From a virus (Duplodnaviria; Heunggongvirae; Uroviricota; Caudoviricetes), in IMG/VR virus record IMGVR_UViG_2636416136_000011: a DNA stretch of 41,816 nt, one strand, 5' to 3'. The notes below the pieces were generated by a model. That model saw only the letters and a list, made by a program, of their open reading frames with translations. It made no database searches and had not been told where the DNA came from. Positions within the stretch are counted from its first letter, which is position 1. The number at the start of each line of letters is the position of its first letter. The position numbers were made by a program, and so were the translations under genes. This document shows positions 32,707 through 41,347 of the stretch, piece by piece.

Positions 32707-33345
32707 ATGTCACAGCCCGTATTAACTAATTACCTTAAAACTCAAATCATCAATAACGCACTTGAGAAAGCGGGTATCCCCAAACGTAAATCAGCACTAC
32801 GAGCTGCTCGTGTTGAATGGGCCGAACGTGTTCGGCTTGCAGCTATCGGGGGCGTAGAGAAAGAAGCTGAAATATTAAAAAATATAAAAAAAATAGAAAC
32901 ACTGGTATCAAAATTCCCCGAAGCATTAAAAACCGCCAATAACATTATCAGGGAAGAGTGTTACATGTGTCTGAATCTGGCAGGTTCTCGGGTTACCGTC
33001 TATTTCAACGGTAACTACCGAGGATATGAATCAGGGTCACCAGACCATATTCACAAAATCGCGCCGGGGGAATTTACCCTTCTGGCAAATGACCCTCTAG
33101 TTACAGAGTTTTACGGGTTTGATACACTTTATGAGCAGATACAGAGCGATGAGTCAGACATTCGACAGAATGTCAGCGCTGCACTCAGTAAAGTGCGCAC
33201 AGTTAAGCGCCTGCTGGAAGAGTGGCCTGAAGCTAAAGAACTTCTGCCAGCCGATGCACCATCTGCTCCGCTTCCGCCAGCTATACGACGCGAAACTCTC
33301 AACGAAATGATCGGCCTCCCTTCTGACGAAGGGGTAGATGCTTAA
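32707..33345 (+). CDS. Hypothetical protein
   Basis: About 212 aa; start set at MSQPV with GAGGGAAAG upstream. Confidence 0.45.
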   Translation: MSQPVLTNYLKTQIINNALEKAGIPKRKSALRAARVEWAERVRLAAIGGVEKEAEILKNIKKIETLVSKFPEALKTANNIIREECYMCLNLAGSRVTVYFNGNYRGYESGSPDHIHKIAPGEFTLLANDPLVTEFYGFDTLYEQIQSDESDIRQNVSAALSKVRTVKRLLEEWPEAKELLPADAPSAPLPPAIRRETLNEMIGLPSDEGVDA

Positions 33346-33412: not shown

Positions 33413-33682
33413 TTAAAATTCATTGAATTTAAAAAGACATTTCCCTATTGGATTGCCATAGTCTCTACATACCGAAATGCTGTCCCATACAGGCTGAGCC
33501 AAACACCCAAGAAAGAACCCAATAAGCGCAAAAATTATAATTTTGGGAAGAACACGATCCTTAGGACCTTCTTCACGTTCGAGCCATGCGCCACCAGCCC
33601 GAACTATTCTCCCTAAAATATAAAGAATGGGGAAAGCAATAATACCTATCAATGAAAGTATTCCGATACCAAAGCTAAACAC
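33413..33682 (-). CDS. Small two-TM membrane protein, antisense to the replication operon (cargo candidate)
   Basis: 89 aa with two hydrophobic helices (IGILSLIGIIAFPILYIL and IIIFALIGFFLGCLA); A+T-rich local DNA. Confidence 0.5.
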   Translation of the reverse strand: MFSFGIGILSLIGIIAFPILYILGRIVRAGGAWLEREEGPKDRVLPKIIIFALIGFFLGCLAQPVWDSISVCRDYGNPIGKCLFKFNEF

Positions 33683-35807: not shown

Positions 35808-36011
35808 ATGACTGTAATCAAAACGCATACCGGAACGGTTATTACCCGCACCGGTGAAAAGCAGGTGCAATTGCATCAAAACGCGACAACGTGGGTGGCT
35901 GGCCCAAAAGAGTATTACTACAAAGACACTGGCCGCCGCGGTGGTGCTGTCGGTGTCCGCACTCGTCTGGTGCTGAGCAGCATCCGCCCAATCGAAGCAA
36001 AGCAGGAGTAA
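35808..36011 (+). CDS. Hypothetical small protein
   Basis: 67 aa; AAGGA upstream of the ATG. Confidence 0.4.
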   Translation: MTVIKTHTGTVITRTGEKQVQLHQNATTWVAGPKEYYYKDTGRRGGAVGVRTRLVLSSIRPIEAKQE

Positions 36012-36016
36012 CCCCT

Positions 36017-36238
36017 ATGTCATTTAAATATCGGGACAGTCCGCTTTATTACCGGGCTGCGAGGGAGGCCTTGCGCCTTGAGCAGTCCGGCGAATATGAC
36101 CGGGCAGCGAAGGTCTGGGCCAAGGCTAACCGCCAGTCACGTAACGAACTGAATCAGGACTGGAGCGAACGCCGGTCTGATTTTTGTCTGATGCAGAACA
36201 TGCGCGAAAAGCGTAAGGCGGTGAGCGATGACTTGTGA
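36017..36238 (+). CDS. Hypothetical small protein
   Basis: 73 aa from ATG 36017 with GGAGTAA upstream (the listed ORF starts further upstream in the same frame). Confidence 0.4.
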   Translation: MSFKYRDSPLYYRAAREALRLEQSGEYDRAAKVWAKANRQSRNELNQDWSERRSDFCLMQNMREKRKAVSDDL

Positions 36239-36710
36239 GCAGACCATTCTTGACATGTGCTGCGGCTCTCGTATGTTTTGGTTCGACAAGGAGGACAAGC
36301 GCGCCGTGTTCAGTGATATCCGCGCCGAGCAGCATGAGCTTTGCGACGGTCGCCAGTTGGTTATAAGTCCGGACCTTATAGCTGATTTCCGCGCCCTTCC
36401 CTTTGCCGATAACACTTTCCCTGTCGTCGTTTTCGATCCGCCGCACCTCGAGCGCGTCGGCGATAACGCATGGATGAGGAAAAAGTACGGGCGGCTCAAC
36501 AAAGAAACATGGCGCGATGATCTTCGCGACGGCTTCGCCGAAGCATTCAGGGTATTGCGGCCCCACGGTGTACTCATATTCAAATGGAACGAAACGCAGA
36601 TCCCGGTAAGCAATATCTTGGCGCTGACCGACGAGAAGCCGGCCATATGGCAACGAACCGGAAAAGCCGACAAAACCCACTGGGTTATTTTCGTCAAAGG
36701 TGTGGAATGA
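36228..36710 (+). CDS. Small DNA methyltransferase (N6-adenine or N4-cytosine type, DPPH motif)
   Basis: Motif I-like ILDMCCGSRMFWF and motif IV VVFDPPH. Confidence 0.6.
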   Translation: MTCEQTILDMCCGSRMFWFDKEDKRAVFSDIRAEQHELCDGRQLVISPDLIADFRALPFADNTFPVVVFDPPHLERVGDNAWMRKKYGRLNKETWRDDLRDGFAEAFRVLRPHGVLIFKWNETQIPVSNILALTDEKPAIWQRTGKADKTHWVIFVKGVE

Positions 36711-37003
36711 TGGCCTACGAACGTGAAAGCCTTATCGAAAAGCACCTCGTCGCCGAAGTGAAAAAGGCTGGCGGGGTCGCCTTTAAGTTCGTGTCACCCG
36801 GTCGCCGCTCGGTACCGGATCGCATTGTCCTGCTACCCGGCGGTCGCATCGTCTTTGTCGAATGCAAAGCGCCAAGCAAACCACCACGGCCTGACCAGTT
36901 ACGCGAGCACGAACGGCTGCGCGCGTTGGGCTTTACCGTGGTGGTATTAGATAGCAAAAATCTGGAGGGGATATTGTGCGGGGAGCCTATTACAACGAAA
37001 TAG
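36707..37003 (+). CDS. VRR-NUC domain nuclease
   Basis: About 98 aa with PD-(D/E)XK-type core PDRIVLLPGGRIVFVECKAPS; start overlaps the methyltransferase stop. Confidence 0.6.
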   Translation: MMAYERESLIEKHLVAEVKKAGGVAFKFVSPGRRSVPDRIVLLPGGRIVFVECKAPSKPPRPDQLREHERLRALGFTVVVLDSKNLEGILCGEPITTK

Positions 37004-38004
37004 ACCCTAACGCAGCACAATGGCTGCGTAACCTTATTGCTGCAGGTCATATCGCCCCGGGTGAAGTTGATGAAAGGAGTATCGAAGATGTCGCACCAGA
37101 CGACTTGCGCGGATTCACACAGTGCCATTTCTTCGCCGGGATCGGCGTCTGGTCTTATGCTCTGCGTCTGGCCGGATGGCCGGATAACAAACCGGTCTGG
37201 ACAGGAAGTTGCCCGTGCCAGCCTTTCAGCTCGGCTGGTAAAGGCGCTGGGTTTGATGACGAGCGGCACCTATGGCCAGCACTATTCCACCTCATCAGCG
37301 AGCGACGCCCTAAGCTGGTATTTGGCGAACAGGTTGCGGGAGTCAATGCCTGGTTCGATCTTGTACAAACTGACGTGGAAGCAGTGGACTACGCCTTTGG
37401 GCTTGTCCCGTTTCCGGCTGCGGGCGTCGGTGCCCCGCATATCCGAGATAGAGCGTATTGGGTGGCCGACGCCAGCGGCGAGCGATCACAGCGGTGGCGA
37501 AAGCGCCTCAATAGCATTGAGGAAGATGTCTGGAGATCGTCGACCGTCCGGCAACACGCTACACAGCTCCCTGCGGAATTTTGCTCACCTAGCGGGGTGG
37601 TACACCCCAACCTGCAACACAAACCCACAGCCGGAGACAAAACGCGGTCTAGAAACCTTAGCGGGACTATCCAGATTAGCGGGATGGCCGACAGTGACGA
37701 CGATCGACAACAACCAAGTTCGTGCCGAGGGCGCAGCGGCCAATCATACCGAACGGGGAACGACCCTCGGCGGCGCTGCGAGAATCTGCGGCCCAATACG
37801 ATTAACGGCTGCTGGGATGGTGCTGACTGGCTCCTCTGCCGGGATGGTCGCTGGCGGCCAGTTGAATCCGGCACATGCCCGTTGGCTAATGGGATTACCT
37901 CCAGAGTGGGACGACTGCGCGCCTACGGCAACGCGATAGTCGCACCAGCTGCCGCAACATTCATCCGCTCGTTTATGGAATGCGCAGGATACGACCTTAT
38001 TTAA
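36976..38004 (+). CDS. DNA (cytosine-5) methyltransferase, Dcm-like
   Basis: Motif I FFAGIGVW, motif [15 protein letters not shown], motif VI FGEQV, motif [13 protein letters not shown] and C-terminal YGNAIV, all in one frame. Confidence 0.8.
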
Positions 38005-38321
38005 TGCCACTCACATCTGGCATGATACCGTCCAGAAGGTAATTGCTTATATACAACGGAGCCGCCCATGGCATAAGTATAAGCATGAAGTTTTGTCCAG
38101 AAGTCCCCATAAACTAGTATTGGGGCTAAAAATTTTGGATCGCTAACCATAGATGTAGCAGGAAGCTCGAAACCTTTAGAAAGAATGTTTACCAGTGAAG
38201 GGTAATTTTCAAAATCAGTGCTATTCCCGCCCACCTCTAAAGCATCCAGTTCAAAGTCGAGCACTCCACCATTTTTGTAATACTCCGGAACAGTTAACCC
38301 TGATGTTAACAAAGTAGCCAT
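38001..38321 (-). CDS. Hypothetical protein, antisense A+T-rich insert with strong RBS (cargo candidate)
   Basis: 106 aa; AGGAGG eight nt upstream of the ATG on the minus strand; no motif recognised. Confidence 0.5.
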   Translation of the reverse strand: MATLLTSGLTVPEYYKNGGVLDFELDALEVGGNSTDFENYPSLVNILSKGFELPATSMVSDPKFLAPILVYGDFWTKLHAYTYAMGGSVVYKQLPSGRYHARCEWH

Positions 38322-38355
38322 TAAACAATCCTCCTGAATTTTAAAGGGTTACATT

Positions 38356-39750
38356 ATGCCCAAAGTTTTCACGCCTCGCCCCTACCAAGATCTAATTATC
38401 AACCACGAAATCGACATTCACCGCTGCAACATCTGGGCAGGGATGGGGATGGGTAAAACCGTAGCGACACTCACCACGCTGGAAGATCTTTTCATGGCGG
38501 GCTCAGAGACACAGCCCGCGCTGGTCCTCGCGCCCCTACGCGTTGCAGCAAGCACATGGCCGGATGAAGCGCTGAAATGGGGGCATCTGCGCAATATCGA
38601 GGTGCAGCCGATTGTTGGTAACGCCAAAGCACGCTCTGCAGCGCTGGCGAACAGCAACGCGAGCGTGTTCACCATCAACTACGATAACCTTGTCTGGCTG
38701 GTTGAGGAATTGGGAGAACGATGGCCGTTCGGTACTGTCATTCCAGATGAAAGCACCCGGCTAAAATCCTTCCGGCTGCGAGGTGGTGGTAAGCGCGCGG
38801 CGGCGCTGGGCAAAGTGGCGCATAAGTATGTCCAGCGCTGGATAAATCTCACCGGTACGCCAGCACCGAACGGCCTGGTAGATTTGTGGGGACAATTGTG
38901 GTTTGTGGACCAGGGGCAACGTCTCGGGCGCACTTACGGCGCGTTTACCTCACGCTGGTTCAACTCGATACAGTTTCCGGGGCAGAGCTGGACCAAACTG
39001 GAGCCGTTTGCTCACTCACATGCTGAAATACAGCGAGCGTTAGCCGATGTGACCCTCTCGCTGGATGCGGCCGACTGGTTCGATATCAAAGACCCCATCC
39101 ATAACGTAATCCGCGTGGATATGCCGCCGAAGGCCCGTCAGCAGTATCGTGAAATGGAAAAGGAAATGTTCCTCGAGCTGAACGGCGAAGGCATCGAAGC
39201 ACCAAACGCCGCGGCAAAGACACTGAAGTGTCTGCAAATCGCCAGTGGCGCAGTATACACAGACGACACCGGAAGTTGGTCAGAACTGCATGACACCAAA
39301 CTACAAGCGCTGGACAGCATACTGACCGAAGCAGCTGGCGCACCTGTGCTGGTTGCTTATCACTGGAAACACGATCTTGAACGCTTGCTTAAAGCATTCC
39401 CTCGCGGTCGTCACCTCGACCAAGATCCACAGACACTGCGCGACTGGAATTCCGGAAAGATTCCTGTTCTCTTTGCACACCCAGCCAGCGCGGGCCACGG
39501 TCTGAACATGCAGGACGGCGGAAACATACTGGTATTTTTCTCACACTGGTGGGACCTGGAGCAGTATCAGCAAATTATTGAACGTATCGGCCCCACCAGG
39601 CAGATACAGGCCGGACACAATCGTCCGGTATTTATTCACCACATTATTGCGGCCGACACTATGGACGAAATGGTGATGGAGCGGCGCAACTCAAAACGAA
39701 CAGTGCAGGACATCCTGCTCGATGCCATGAAAAAGAGAGGTATAGCATGA
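38356..39750 (+). CDS. Superfamily-2 (SNF2/DEAD-like) helicase
   Basis: Walker A AGMGMGKTV, motif II VIPDEST, C-terminal helicase-like region (HPASAGHGLNMQ). Confidence 0.7.
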   Translation: MPKVFTPRPYQDLIINHEIDIHRCNIWAGMGMGKTVATLTTLEDLFMAGSETQPALVLAPLRVAASTWPDEALKWGHLRNIEVQPIVGNAKARSAALANSNASVFTINYDNLVWLVEELGERWPFGTVIPDESTRLKSFRLRGGGKRAAALGKVAHKYVQRWINLTGTPAPNGLVDLWGQLWFVDQGQRLGRTYGAFTSRWFNSIQFPGQSWTKLEPFAHSHAEIQRALADVTLSLDAADWFDIKDPIHNVIRVDMPPKARQQYREMEKEMFLELNGEGIEAPNAAAKTLKCLQIASGAVYTDDTGSWSELHDTKLQALDSILTEAAGAPVLVAYHWKHDLERLLKAFPRGRHLDQDPQTLRDWNSGKIPVLFAHPASAGHGLNMQDGGNILVFFSHWWDLEQYQQIIERIGPTRQIQAGHNRPVFIHHIIAADTMDEMVMERRNSKRTVQDILLDAMKKRGIA

Positions 39751-39947
39751 GCGAGAAACCCGACGATTTACTCACCCCAGATGAAGTATGCCAAAAGTTA
39801 GGTATTACACAGAAAACGCTATGTGAGTGGAATATTAAGCATCGTCATCGGGCTATCCTGGCACCAATTCGTTTCAGTGCAAAAGTAGTTCGTTATGAGC
39901 GCCGAAATGTCGACGCTTTTATTCAAAAGTGTCGCAGCCAGTATTAA
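39747..39947 (+). CDS. Excisionase / AlpA-like HTH protein
   Basis: 66 aa with HTH (LTPDEVCQKLGITQKTLCEW); overlaps the helicase stop and integrase stop; adjacent to the integrase. Confidence 0.55.
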   Translation: MSEKPDDLLTPDEVCQKLGITQKTLCEWNIKHRHRAILAPIRFSAKVVRYERRNVDAFIQKCRSQY

Positions 39948-41347
39948 CCTCGCCGCCGTAGCAATGCAACCTGCGCAAGTATGCTCCGCTCGTGAGCCTC
40001 GAAAGCTTCGCGCTTTAACGCAATCTCTTCCTGTAAAATCTCATCAGAAAAGTCGTAATGTTCTGCCATCGGGTCATCTGACTTGCTGGAGTGGTGAAGG
40101 CAAAGGAGGCTGATTTCCCTTCGGTCTGATCGGGAATAGCCTCTTTCCTTCATCAAGGCAATAACATTGCTCTTAAGGAATTTACGGCACATCGTATTAA
40201 ATGCACCGTCTTTCCCTTTAACAGTCCCATCATGTTTTATTCCTTTTACAGCCCCGTCCGGGCTGTATGTTTTCACCAGCTTATCCAGTGATCGTTTTGA
40301 AAATGGCTGCATTGGATCACGTGGCTGCAAAAATACATAATCCCTGTTGCACTCAGGAACTGAATCACGCCAGGCTTTCTGCTCGTCGATAATCCGCCGG
40401 ATCTCAGGCGTTATCGGCAGGCGGAAAGCCTTTTGTGTTTTCATAGCCCCTCGCATGCCGATAACCCCTTCCGGATAAACAATTTCACCAGCCTCCTCGT
40501 GAACGTAGTCCCAGCGCAGGTTATGGACATTAATCGGACGAACGCCAGTGATGATCATGAAGCGAACAGCATTCTTCTGGTGTACAGAGGTGCAGGCAGC
40601 AACATTGAGCCAGAGTCGGGCGATTGATTCAATATCGGTAAAAAGCCGTGTGGGGGTAGGTTTCTGTATGCGGGAGGAAACATAATCATCTGGCAGACTG
40701 GCGGCAACATTGCGGCCGTTGCAAAGAGTAGGTGCGCAGAACTTCCAGAACCGACGGAGCTCGGCAAACAACTCCAGGGCGTTATTGTTCGAGCGAGTGG
40801 CGATCCACTCGTCCAGCACTTCCACCAGCCGATTGTATGTTACGTCGCTGAACACCTCACGCTCGCCGAACGTTGCTTTAATCCGGTCGATACGCACCCC
40901 GTAGGTTGTGAAACTGTCCGGGCTCAGCTTCTGCCGGGCGACTTTGGCTTTGAGGTCATCCCGGTACATTTCCAGCGCTGCATGTACTGACTCTGCCCGC
41001 AAGCCACAGTCAGCCATACCTAGCGCTTTTTCGCGCGCCAGCTGGATAGCGAGCTCCGGCCACTCGCCGAGCTTTTTACCCTTGAGGCCCATCTTTTTTG
41101 GAAACTCGGCGTAAAATGTAACCTTACCGGCTTTGCTGAAATCGATACGGAGATAGTTCTCTTTTTCGTATTTGGAACGGCGAGCCACGCCGGAAGCAGC
41201 GAGGATGATTTTGGCAGCAGCAACACAGATTTTCATGTGTGCGCTGGTATAGGGGGGTTTACAGGCGTCCCATTTTTCAGATGCGGCTAAAACATCGTCA
41301 TTATTGGGGCTATCCGGATTATGTGTTACAGTGCGCGGCATTCTCAA
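39944..41347 (-). CDS. Tyrosine-type site-specific integrase
   Basis: TGVRP box-I Arg, downstream Lys and His/Arg cluster, C-terminal MAEHY tyrosine region; at the prophage end next to a host gene. Confidence 0.75.
   Translation of the reverse strand: MRMPRTVTHNPDSPNNDDVLAASEKWDACKPPYTSAHMKICVAAAKIILAASGVARRSKYEKENYLRIDFSKAGKVTFYAEFPKKMGLKGKKLGEWPELAIQLAREKALGMADCGLRAESVHAALEMYRDDLKAKVARQKLSPDSFTTYGVRIDRIKATFGEREVFSDVTYNRLVEVLDEWIATRSNNNALELFAELRRFWKFCAPTLCNGRNVAASLPDDYVSSRIQKPTPTRLFTDIESIARLWLNVAACTSVHQKNAVRFMIITGVRPINVHNLRWDYVHEEAGEIVYPEGVIGMRGAMKTQKAFRLPITPEIRRIIDEQKAWRDSVPECNRDYVFLQPRDPMQPFSKRSLDKLVKTYSPDGAVKGIKHDGTVKGKDGAFNTMCRKFLKSNVIALMKERGYSRSDRREISLLCLHHSSKSDDPMAEHYDFSDEILQEEIALKREAFEAHERSILAQVALLRRRG

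What the first reader, a model, noticed from the sequence alone, without database searches (positions are those of the whole stretch)
38001..38355. Antisense A+T-rich gene with strong Shine-Dalgarno wedged between Dcm and the helicase
The 106-aa ORF is on the opposite strand to the whole replication operon, sits in a locally A+T-rich patch and has a consensus AGGAGG eight nt before its ATG. That is a typical acquired-cargo signature. I recognise no motif, so it could be an anti-restriction factor, a toxin or another small defence gene.
Basis: partly seen in the sequence, partly recalled or inferred. Interest (0 to 1): 0.5.

Follow-up and report, generated by a model that had tools for sequence, protein, structure and literature searches.

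The report
Small orphan gene in prophage defence hotspot
A real, conserved 106-amino-acid gene of unknown function sits in a swap-in/swap-out slot of an E. coli prophage where sister prophages carry known anti-phage defence genes, which makes it a reasonable but untested candidate for a new small phage-exclusion protein.

Summary
There is a 106-aa ORF at 38001-38321 (-), with AGGAGG 8 nt before its ATG, GC 0.42 against 0.55-0.58 in the flanks, antisense between Dcm and an SNF2 helicase. The element is an E. coli prophage integrated next to yfhL.

The ORF is a real gene.
- Full-length homologues at 64-97% identity occur across Enterobacterales, with pN far below pS.
- A wider family of about 105-115-aa proteins spans Proteobacteria.
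- The AlphaFold model is confident (pLDDT 94.7).

Its roughly 380-bp cassette sits in a hypervariable slot. In 12 sampled yfhL prophages the slot holds, mostly antisense:
- BstA (3 prophages);
- PDC-S42;
- several unknown genes;
- or this gene.

Alleles only 35-43% identical occupy the same slot between flanks that are 80-96% identical. Elsewhere the family is a single-gene integron cassette in Vibrio vulnificus, and lies in a Dyella defence island and a mobilizable element. It has no constant partner.

Best reading (about 0.4): a stand-alone, lysogen-expressed phage-exclusion protein that acts by binding rather than catalysis. Main rival: an anti-defence inhibitor. Function is inferred from location only.

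The parts
38001..38321 (-). 106-aa protein-coding gene (RefSeq WP_000212683.1, 'hypothetical protein'). Member of phrog_28127 and of a wider unnamed family of about 105-115-aa single-domain proteins.
   Evidence: ORF. phrog_28127 E 1.7e-59 over its full length. Homologues and alignment. Purifying selection. AF2 pLDDT 94.7.
38330..38335 (-). Shine-Dalgarno AGGAGG, 8 nt upstream of the ATG. Retained as AGGAGT in Klebsiella and AAGAGG in Pectobacterium.
   Evidence: Sequence. Junction alignment and printed upstream regions.
38322..38355 (.). 34-bp divergent intergenic region between the ORF's ATG and the helicase's ATG. It belongs to the cassette and is conserved in the Klebsiella and Pectobacterium versions; the distant alleles keep a 32-nt spacing.
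   Evidence: and gene coordinates.
38000..38380 (.). Exchangeable cassette. The left border is at the overlapping stop codons of Dcm and the ORF. The right border is about 25 nt inside the helicase gene, where homology among all prophage variants resumes (CCTCGCCCCTACCAAG).
   Evidence: Left border against the O103:H2 BstA variant. Right border from the six-way junction alignment. Start points of helicase-only matches in 138 other E. coli genomes, query positions 962-1002.
38353..38358 (-). CATAAT, a -10-like hexamer on the ORF's strand that overlaps the helicase start codon. It is present in all five family-bearing loci compared. This is a lead only; no matching -35 was found.
   Evidence: Read. 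The strict promoter scan found nothing.
36976..38004 (+). C5 cytosine DNA methyltransferase (Dcm-type), the left neighbour. Its stop codon overlaps the ORF's stop by 4 nt. It is itself optional in this prophage family.
   Evidence: Absent.
36710..37003 (+). VRR-NUC nuclease gene. This is the conserved left flank of the slot in prophages that lack Dcm.
38356..39750 (+). SNF2-family helicase gene, the conserved right flank of the slot.
39944..41347 (-). Tyrosine integrase. The prophage ends next to yfhL (41556 onward).

Best explanation
The ORF is a genuine, stand-alone accessory gene of a temperate phage whose replication module runs PolA / VRR-NUC / SNF2 helicase, integrated at yfhL. It fills a recombination hotspot immediately upstream of the helicase gene, where different lineages of the same phage carry alternative, mostly antisense cargo.

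I propose that it is expressed from the prophage, separately from the lytic replication operon, and protects the lysogen against other phages (superinfection exclusion or defence). Because the family has no conserved catalytic-type residues, I propose that it works stoichiometrically: a small acidic alpha/beta protein, possibly a dimer, that binds a phage or host protein.

Shown: the gene is real; it is under purifying selection; it evolves fast; it needs no fixed partner; it sits in a slot that also houses BstA and PDC-S42; and its homologues sit in integron cassettes and defence islands.

Inferred: expression during lysogeny, the anti-phage role, and the binding mechanism.
For: Reality and autonomy of the gene
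- 11 collinear 106-aa homologues exist.
- pN 0.18-0.22 against pS 0.67-0.79.
- 56 family representatives, nearly all 102-122 aa.
- The AF2 model reaches pLDDT 94.7 and pTM 0.85.
- The Vibrio vulnificus homologue is a one-gene cassette bracketed by attC-like repeats of about 130 nt, in an array holding 8-11 copies of the repeat.
- Neighbours of family members outside prophages are not homologous to one another.

Hotspot
- The cassette borders are at about 38000 and about 38380.
- Of 5426 complete E. coli genomes, 158 carry the helicase but only 20 carry this cassette.
- The slot in the 12 sampled yfhL prophages contained:
  - this gene (1 prophage);
  - BstA in 3 (PADLOC E 2.5e-110 and 1.4e-115 in two; the third carries the same protein as one of these and RefSeq annotates it 'BstA C-terminal domain');
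  - PDC-S42 plus two small genes (E 4.7e-40);
  - four unknown cargo sets, of 195, 265 (in two prophages), 214 and 166+71 aa, all antisense;
  - regulators in 1;
  - forward-strand genes in 1.
- BstA is an experimentally shown prophage defence that is highly expressed in lysogeny (PMC8585504).

Arms-race-like evolution
- The helicase is 93.5, 91.6 and 79.6% identical to the Klebsiella, Pectobacterium and Providencia versions, against 70.8, 67.9 and 42.9% for the ORF.
- dN is about 0.20 for the ORF against 0.036 for the helicase.
- In a second E. coli prophage the helicase is 95.5% and VRR-NUC 93.3% identical, but the slot gene is only 34.9% identical.

Defence-island company elsewhere
- In Dyella the homologue lies between a Lamassu-like operon (LmuB_C, CTD7, MC3) and PDC-S06 (E 3e-161).
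- In metagenomic loci it lies beside HEPN/NTase and DUF4365 genes.
- Integron cassettes of unknown function have been shown to encode compact phage defences (bioRxiv 10.1101/2024.07.02.601719).

Binding rather than catalysis
- The invariant or near-invariant positions are G18 G19 E38 G50 F51 W75 G87 Y91 A101, mostly glycines and aromatics.
- The family is uniformly acidic (pI 4.3-6.7, median 5.1).
- One member is a tandem duplication of the domain.
Against: There is no experimental or expression evidence. No sigma-70 consensus promoter was found upstream, and only 34 bp separate the ORF from the helicase ATG. No PADLOC model matches. Guilt by location is weak evidence: hotspots also hold anti-defence genes and other morons, and 5 of the 12 sampled slot occupants are themselves of unknown function. 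A 106-aa protein with no enzymatic or membrane domain is atypical for known single-gene defences and more typical of inhibitors. The long residence of the family in this one slot could instead reflect a phage-specific role. No family member was found in 50,697 deposited phage genomes, using three different queries.
Confidence: 0.4

Rival explanations
1. Anti-defence (counter-defence) inhibitor: a small acidic protein that binds and blocks a host immune protein, helping the phage or other mobile element to establish itself.
For: Its size, acidity, lack of catalytic residues, rapid sequence evolution and stand-alone nature fit known anti-defence proteins. One homologue sits right after an integrase and between relaxase genes in a mobilizable element. 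Two lie on Burkholderia megaplasmids.
Against: It is antisense to the early replication operon, where anti-defence genes would normally be co-transcribed. It shares its slot and orientation with BstA and PDC-S42, which are defence genes. Chromosomal homologues lie in a sedentary integron array and inside a bacterial defence island, where an anti-defence gene would harm its carrier. There is no sequence or fold match to any solved anti-defence protein.
Confidence: 0.2
2. Other lysogenic-conversion moron with a host-directed role unrelated to phages (stress, regulation or fitness).
For: It is AT-rich, has a strong ribosome-binding site, and is antisense cargo in a prophage. Function is unknown in every database. 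Integron arrays carry many kinds of adaptive genes.
Against: The co-occupants of the slot that can be identified are defence genes. Repeated association with defence loci in unrelated bacteria. Fast, allele-replacing evolution is less expected for a housekeeping-like host function.
Confidence: 0.15
3. Phage-intrinsic factor tied to this replication module, for example a regulator or inhibitor of the adjacent SNF2 helicase, or a factor in the lysis-lysogeny decision.
For: Slot fidelity is striking. Alleles down to 35% identity keep the same position, the same orientation, overlapping stop codons with the left neighbour and a 32-34-nt divergent spacing to the helicase start. The cassette carries the helicase's own ribosome-binding site and first codons.
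Against: Most sister prophages, and the deposited phage vB_EcoM-606R2 (a separate phage record in GenBank), lack the gene altogether and carry unrelated cargo there, so it is dispensable for the phage. Homologues also occur where no such helicase is nearby, namely in an integron, a Dyella island and Buttiauxella. Slot fidelity is also explained by homologous recombination in the conserved flanks.
Confidence: 0.12
4. Toxin, or an orphan component of a toxin-antitoxin pair.
For: It is small, mobile and sometimes lies near toxin-antitoxin genes.
Against: There is no partner gene within the 380-bp cassette. It is a single-gene integron cassette. Its neighbours elsewhere are not conserved. No toxin or antitoxin family matches.
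Confidence: 0.03
5. Chance ORF in an AT-rich spacer.
For: No promoter consensus was found.
Against: Conservation of length and sequence across genera, pN far below pS, a 56-cluster family and a confident fold prediction.
Confidence: 0.01

Closest known systems
BstA (prophage-encoded abortive-infection defence; Owen et al. 2021, PMC8585504)
   Same: It occupies the very same slot, in the same antisense orientation, in sister yfhL prophages. Like this gene it is a single-gene prophage cargo.
   Different: No sequence relationship (PADLOC BstA model: no hit). BstA is about 300 aa with an HTH-like N-terminal domain, whereas this protein is a single 106-aa domain. BstA's defence phenotype and lysogenic expression are experimentally shown; nothing is shown here.
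Defence hotspots of temperate phages and satellites (P2/P4-type hotspots). Recalled from my own knowledge of Rousset et al. 2022, not checked here.
   Same: Conserved flanking genes, mutually exclusive alternative cargo, known defence genes among the alternatives, and borders tight against the flanking genes.
   Different: This is a different phage family (DUF2800 / Enc34-type ssDNA-binding protein / PolA / VRR-NUC / SNF2 module) and a different slot. I found no paper describing this hotspot.
Bacteriophage-resistance integron cassettes (BRiCs; Kieffer et al., bioRxiv 10.1101/2024.07.02.601719)
   Same: The Vibrio vulnificus homologue is a one-gene cassette of unknown function in an integron array. 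That class has been shown to include compact defence genes.
   Different: No evidence that this family is among the tested BRiCs. The array here is chromosomal and looks like a Vibrio superintegron, not a mobile integron.
phrog_28127 (PHROGs v4, unknown function)
   Same: Full-length match, E 1.7e-59, residues 1-106 of 106. This is the only library family that contains it.
   Different: The PHROG carries no annotation, and the wider family found here is not covered by Pfam, NCBIfam or PADLOC.
   Same: Small, cytoplasmic and acidic (pI 5.15; N-terminal half pI 4.05).

Membership tests
phrog_28127 | Significant full-length match to the family profile | tested here: met
   E 1.7e-59, 199.5 bits, residues 1-106 on profile positions 1-106.
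Prophage defence-hotspot cargo | Mutually exclusive alternative genes between conserved flanking genes in related prophages | tested here: met
   Twelve yfhL prophages sampled, with at least 7 unrelated cargo sets. Borders at about 38000 and about 38380.
Prophage defence-hotspot cargo | Known defence systems among the alternative occupants | tested here: met
   BstA in 3 prophages: PADLOC E 2.5e-110 and 1.4e-115 in two, and the third carries the same protein as one of these and is annotated by RefSeq. PDC-S42 at E 4.7e-40.
Prophage defence-hotspot cargo | The gene itself confers protection against phage infection | not testable with these tools
   Needs plaque assays. No literature on this protein or its accessions.
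Prophage defence-hotspot cargo | Expression in the lysogenic state from its own promoter | tested here: inconclusive
   Strong Shine-Dalgarno sequence but no sigma-70 consensus site. A CATAAT hexamer is conserved at the helicase start. No transcriptome data available.
BstA | Match to the BstA profile; about 300 aa, two-domain architecture | tested here: not met
   PADLOC returned 0 families at E up to 10. The protein is a single 106-aa domain.
Any PADLOC v2 defence or candidate family | Profile match | tested here: not met
   0 families.
Anti-restriction DNA mimics (ArdA, Ocr, KlcA/ArdB) | Sequence or fold similarity; extreme negative surface charge | tested here: not met
Type II toxin-antitoxin module | Adjacent co-oriented partner gene conserved across loci | tested here: not met
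   The cassette holds one gene. The Vibrio copy is a single-gene integron cassette. Neighbours are not homologous across loci.
Integron gene cassette (applies to the Vibrio vulnificus homologue only) | A single ORF bounded by attC recombination sites within an array of same-strand cassettes | tested here: met
   L037 gene 1862-2191 lies between repeats at 1665-1797 and 2183-2315. There are 8-11 repeat copies in 8 kb, with TAACAAA...GCGTTAGGC-type ends. No integrase was seen on these short contigs.

The most novel reading that the evidence does not exclude
The gene founds a new family of single-protein, non-enzymatic anti-phage exclusion factors. The family has a fold with no solved relative. 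It has been carried for a long time in one prophage hotspot, where it diversifies allele by allele, and it also spreads as an integron cassette and as defence-island cargo across Proteobacteria.
Probability: 0.3. Interest if true: 0.6.

Novelty: new member of a known kind. Interest (0 to 1): 0.42.

Why it matters
If the protein does block phages, it would be one of the smallest stand-alone defence proteins known, with an unrecognised fold and probably a binding-based mechanism. That makes it cheap to test and informative about what it senses or blocks. Independently of its function, the slot between VRR-NUC and the SNF2 helicase in this prophage family is a compact, well-delimited hotspot. About half of its sampled occupants are uncharacterised, so it is a ready-made source of candidate defence genes in E. 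coli and related enterobacteria.

Tried and rejected
- Pfam, NCBIfam and PADLOC on the protein returned nothing. The only Pfam line was DUF5848 at E 0.22, which is noise. Pfam on all 46 family members gave only scattered single weak hits.
- PDB sequence searches with two profiles found nothing below E 0.06.
- tblastn of three family members against 50,697 deposited phage genomes found no match.
- The promoter and terminator scan found no site. Rfam on 37500-38900 gave nothing meaningful.
- A search for domain fusions among the longer family members gave only short tails, one tandem duplication and one zinc-ribbon-like tail.
- A search for a conserved partner gene in non-prophage contexts found none.
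- Literature searches by accession, PHROG id and hotspot keywords, and the supplements of the DefensePredictor paper, gave nothing.
- I rejected the idea that divergent alleles must mean recent horizontal import. Synonymous divergence of the helicase between E. coli and Klebsiella is also high (pS 0.59 against 0.79 for the ORF), which fits long co-residence plus faster protein evolution. The 35% allele between 95%-identical flanks does need cassette exchange.

Full report
**1. What is in the sequence**

- It runs 38001..38321 on the minus strand, starts with ATG and encodes 106 aa.
- AGGAGG lies at 38335-38330, with an 8-nt spacer before the ATG.
- GC is 0.41 across 38000-38400, against 0.55-0.62 on either side. 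The ORF has GC3 0.35, against about 0.58-0.61 in its neighbours.
- The left neighbour is a C5 cytosine methyltransferase. Its stop codon overlaps the ORF's stop by 4 nt. The right neighbour is an SNF2-family helicase whose ATG lies 34 bp from the ORF's ATG, divergently.

The window is an E. coli prophage. Its integrase (39944-41347, -) abuts the chromosomal gene yfhL. The same 1.6 kb is 100% identical in strains BH100N, F11 and others, where RefSeq calls the ORF hypothetical protein WP_000212683.1.

**2. It is a real gene**

- Eleven full-length, collinear 106-aa homologues at 64-97% identity occur in Salmonella, Klebsiella, Pectobacterium, Enterobacter and Buttiauxella.
- Non-synonymous differences are far rarer than synonymous ones (pN 0.18-0.22 against pS 0.67-0.79).
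- A profile search that read 1.84 billion representative proteins found 56 relatives (24 below E 1e-10), nearly all 102-122 aa. They come from Providencia/Proteus, Vibrio, Xenorhabdus, Burkholderia/Paraburkholderia, Dyella and metagenomes, and every one is annotated 'hypothetical'.
- With this deeper alignment AlphaFold2 gives a confident single-domain alpha/beta model (pLDDT 94.7, pTM 0.85).
- The only library family that matches is phrog_28127, of unknown function (E 1.7e-59).
- Pfam, NCBIfam, PADLOC and PDB sequence searches are empty, both for the protein and for the family.
- The conserved positions are G18 G19 E38 G50 F51 W75 G87 Y91 A101. These are structural residues and do not form a catalytic constellation.
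- The family is uniformly acidic, with median pI 5.1. One member is a tandem duplication of the domain, which hints at a dimer.

**3. The slot is a cargo hotspot that holds known defence genes**

*Borders.* Aligning the junctions shows that homology among all variants of this prophage resumes about 25 nt inside the helicase gene. On the left it stops at the Dcm stop codon. The exchangeable unit is therefore about 38000-38380: the ORF, its 34-bp leader, and the helicase's own start region.

*Prevalence.* Of 5426 complete E. coli genomes, 158 carry this helicase but only 20 carry this cassette.

*Occupants.* I sampled 12 prophages at yfhL. The slot held:

| Occupant | Prophages | Orientation |
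|---|---|---|
| The 106-aa gene | 1 | antisense |
| BstA (PADLOC E 2.5e-110 and 1.4e-115 in two; the third carries the same protein as one of these and RefSeq annotates it) | 3 | antisense |
| PDC-S42 (E 4.7e-40) plus two small genes | 1 | antisense |
| Unknown genes of 195, 265, 265, 214 and 166+71 aa | 5 | antisense |
| Arc/Arc/Rha regulators | 1 | mixed |
| Two genes in phage vB_EcoM-606R2 | 1 | forward |

BstA is an experimentally established prophage defence that is highly expressed in lysogeny (PMC8585504). A neighbouring position after the DNA polymerase gene holds a PDC-S35 TIR protein in several relatives.

**4. The family is an old, fast-evolving resident of this slot**

Family members sit in the same place and orientation in related prophages at other attachment sites. 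Each overlaps the stop codon of its left neighbour and lies 32-34 nt from the helicase ATG.

| Prophage | Slot gene identity to the window | Helicase identity |
|---|---|---|
| Klebsiella | 70.8% | 93.5% |
| Pectobacterium | 67.9% | 91.6% |
| Providencia/Proteus | 42.9% | 79.6% |
| E. coli, prophage beside proBA | 34.9% (109 aa) | 95.5% (VRR-NUC 93.3%) |

- Between E. coli and Klebsiella, synonymous divergence is high in both genes (pS 0.79 for the ORF, 0.59 for the helicase). Amino-acid divergence is about five times higher in the ORF (dN 0.20 against 0.036).
- The gene is therefore not a recent import. It is constrained but fast-changing, and its alleles are exchanged between near-identical backbones. 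This pattern is typical of genes involved in conflict.
- Dcm is not a fixed partner. Most relatives lack it, and the ORF then abuts the VRR-NUC gene.

**5. Outside prophages the gene travels alone and keeps defence-related company**

- In Vibrio vulnificus the 109-aa homologue is a single-gene cassette bounded by attC-like repeats of about 130 nt, in an array of same-strand cassettes.
- In Dyella it lies in an integrase-bounded island, between a Lamassu-like operon and a PDC-S06 candidate system (E 3e-161).
- In a gammaproteobacterial metagenome-assembled genome it follows an integrase inside a mobilizable element with relaxases.
- Other copies lie beside HEPN/NTase toxin-antitoxin genes, or beside DUF4365 and a giant PIN protein, or in a Buttiauxella island before an HNH_2 nuclease gene.
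- Still others follow an HTH gene in Burkholderia, and two lie on Burkholderia megaplasmids.
- The adjacent genes are not homologous to each other, so there is no conserved partner.

**6. Interpretation**

Firmly established: the gene is real; it is a stand-alone unit; it belongs to an undescribed family with no recognisable fold relative; and it occupies a hypervariable prophage slot that otherwise carries BstA and a PADLOC candidate system.

Inferred: its function. I favour a lysogen-expressed phage-exclusion or defence role carried out by binding rather than catalysis (about 0.4), for these reasons.
- The slot's identifiable occupants are defences in the same antisense orientation.
- Chromosomal homologues sit in integron arrays and defence islands, where a counter-defence gene would be harmful to its carrier.
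- The conserved residues look structural.

The main rival is an anti-defence inhibitor (about 0.2), which fits the size, charge and rapid evolution equally well. A phage-intrinsic role linked to the helicase (about 0.12) is suggested by the slot fidelity. It is weakened by the many sister phages that lack the gene and by homologues found far from any such helicase. A host-directed moron function (about 0.15) cannot be excluded. Toxin and chance-ORF readings are effectively ruled out.

Weak points: no promoter consensus, no expression data, no phenotype, and no family member in deposited phage genomes.

**7. Novelty and score**

The kind of thing is well known: accessory cargo in a prophage hotspot. 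This protein family and this particular hotspot appear undescribed. No hits came from searches by accession, PHROG id or keywords, nor from the supplements of a recent E. coli defence-prediction paper. I rate it a new member of a known kind, of moderate interest. It is a clean, cheap candidate for experimental testing, and the slot itself is a useful source of further candidates.

Noticed in passing
window 33413-33682 (-): A second antisense small gene (89 aa, RefSeq hypothetical WP_000490741.1) sits between the Nmad5-family gene and the DNA polymerase gene. Sister prophages carry unrelated antisense genes of 209 and 229 aa at the same place, so this looks like a second cargo slot. No PADLOC hit.
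   Followed up: partly
L029:1436-2197, L043:1119-1880, L044:1382-2143, L001:1508-2269, L039:8094-8855: Directly after the DNA polymerase gene, several sister prophages (and phage vB_EcoM-606R2) carry a 253-aa TIR protein, on the same strand as the polymerase gene. The L029 copy was scored (PADLOC PDC-S35, E 6.8e-109; Pfam CAP12-PCTIR_TIR); the others rest on record annotation or precomputed Pfam. The window has a 67-aa ORF (35808-36011), an ANR-family regulator and a class I SAM methyltransferase there instead.
   Followed up: partly
L031:3854-4441, L045:2947-3447, L032:3599-4396, L043:2609-3406, L044:2685-3329 (all minus strand): The unknown occupants of the same slot (195, 166, 265, 265 and 214 aa) are distantly related to one another by BLASTP (E about 1e-7; 166 against 195 aa is 98% identical). 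They have no Pfam or PADLOC match, so they form a second uncharacterised family in the hotspot.
   Followed up: partly
L032:2210-3238 (-): In strain 24AR0357 an antisense 342-aa HATPase_c (GHKL ATPase) protein sits between the polymerase and VRR-NUC genes. It has a weak PADLOC hit to DrmA (E 5e-8).
   Followed up: no
window 36228-38004 (+) and about 32707-33345 (+): The window's replication operon carries three possible DNA or nucleotide-modification genes: an Nmad5-family protein, a class I SAM methyltransferase (36228-36710) and Dcm (36976-38004). Only some sister prophages have them, so together they may form an optional self-protection (anti-restriction by modification) set.
   Followed up: no
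window 38356-38380 and alignment A3: The first 8 or so codons and the ribosome-binding site of the SNF2 helicase differ with each cassette type. Helicase-only matches in other genomes begin at query positions 962-1002. Each cargo therefore brings its own helicase start, implying recombination breakpoints just inside the gene.
   Followed up: partly
L037:1-8191 (Vibrio vulnificus contig): An array of 8-11 attC-like repeats of about 130 nt separates small same-strand genes (acetyltransferases, ankyrin, DUF4087 and others). This is typical of a Vibrio superintegron, and the family homologue is one cassette (1862-2191).
   Followed up: yes
P0059 (208 aa, metagenomic): One family member is a head-to-tail duplication of the domain (a degenerate first copy, and a second copy at residues 113-199). 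This suggests the single-domain proteins act as dimers.
   Followed up: no
L012:1-1373 (Pectobacterium odoriferum): A DarT/Macro (DarTG-type) pair and a second integrase lie next to the prophage integrase, so a defence island shares the attachment region.
   Followed up: no
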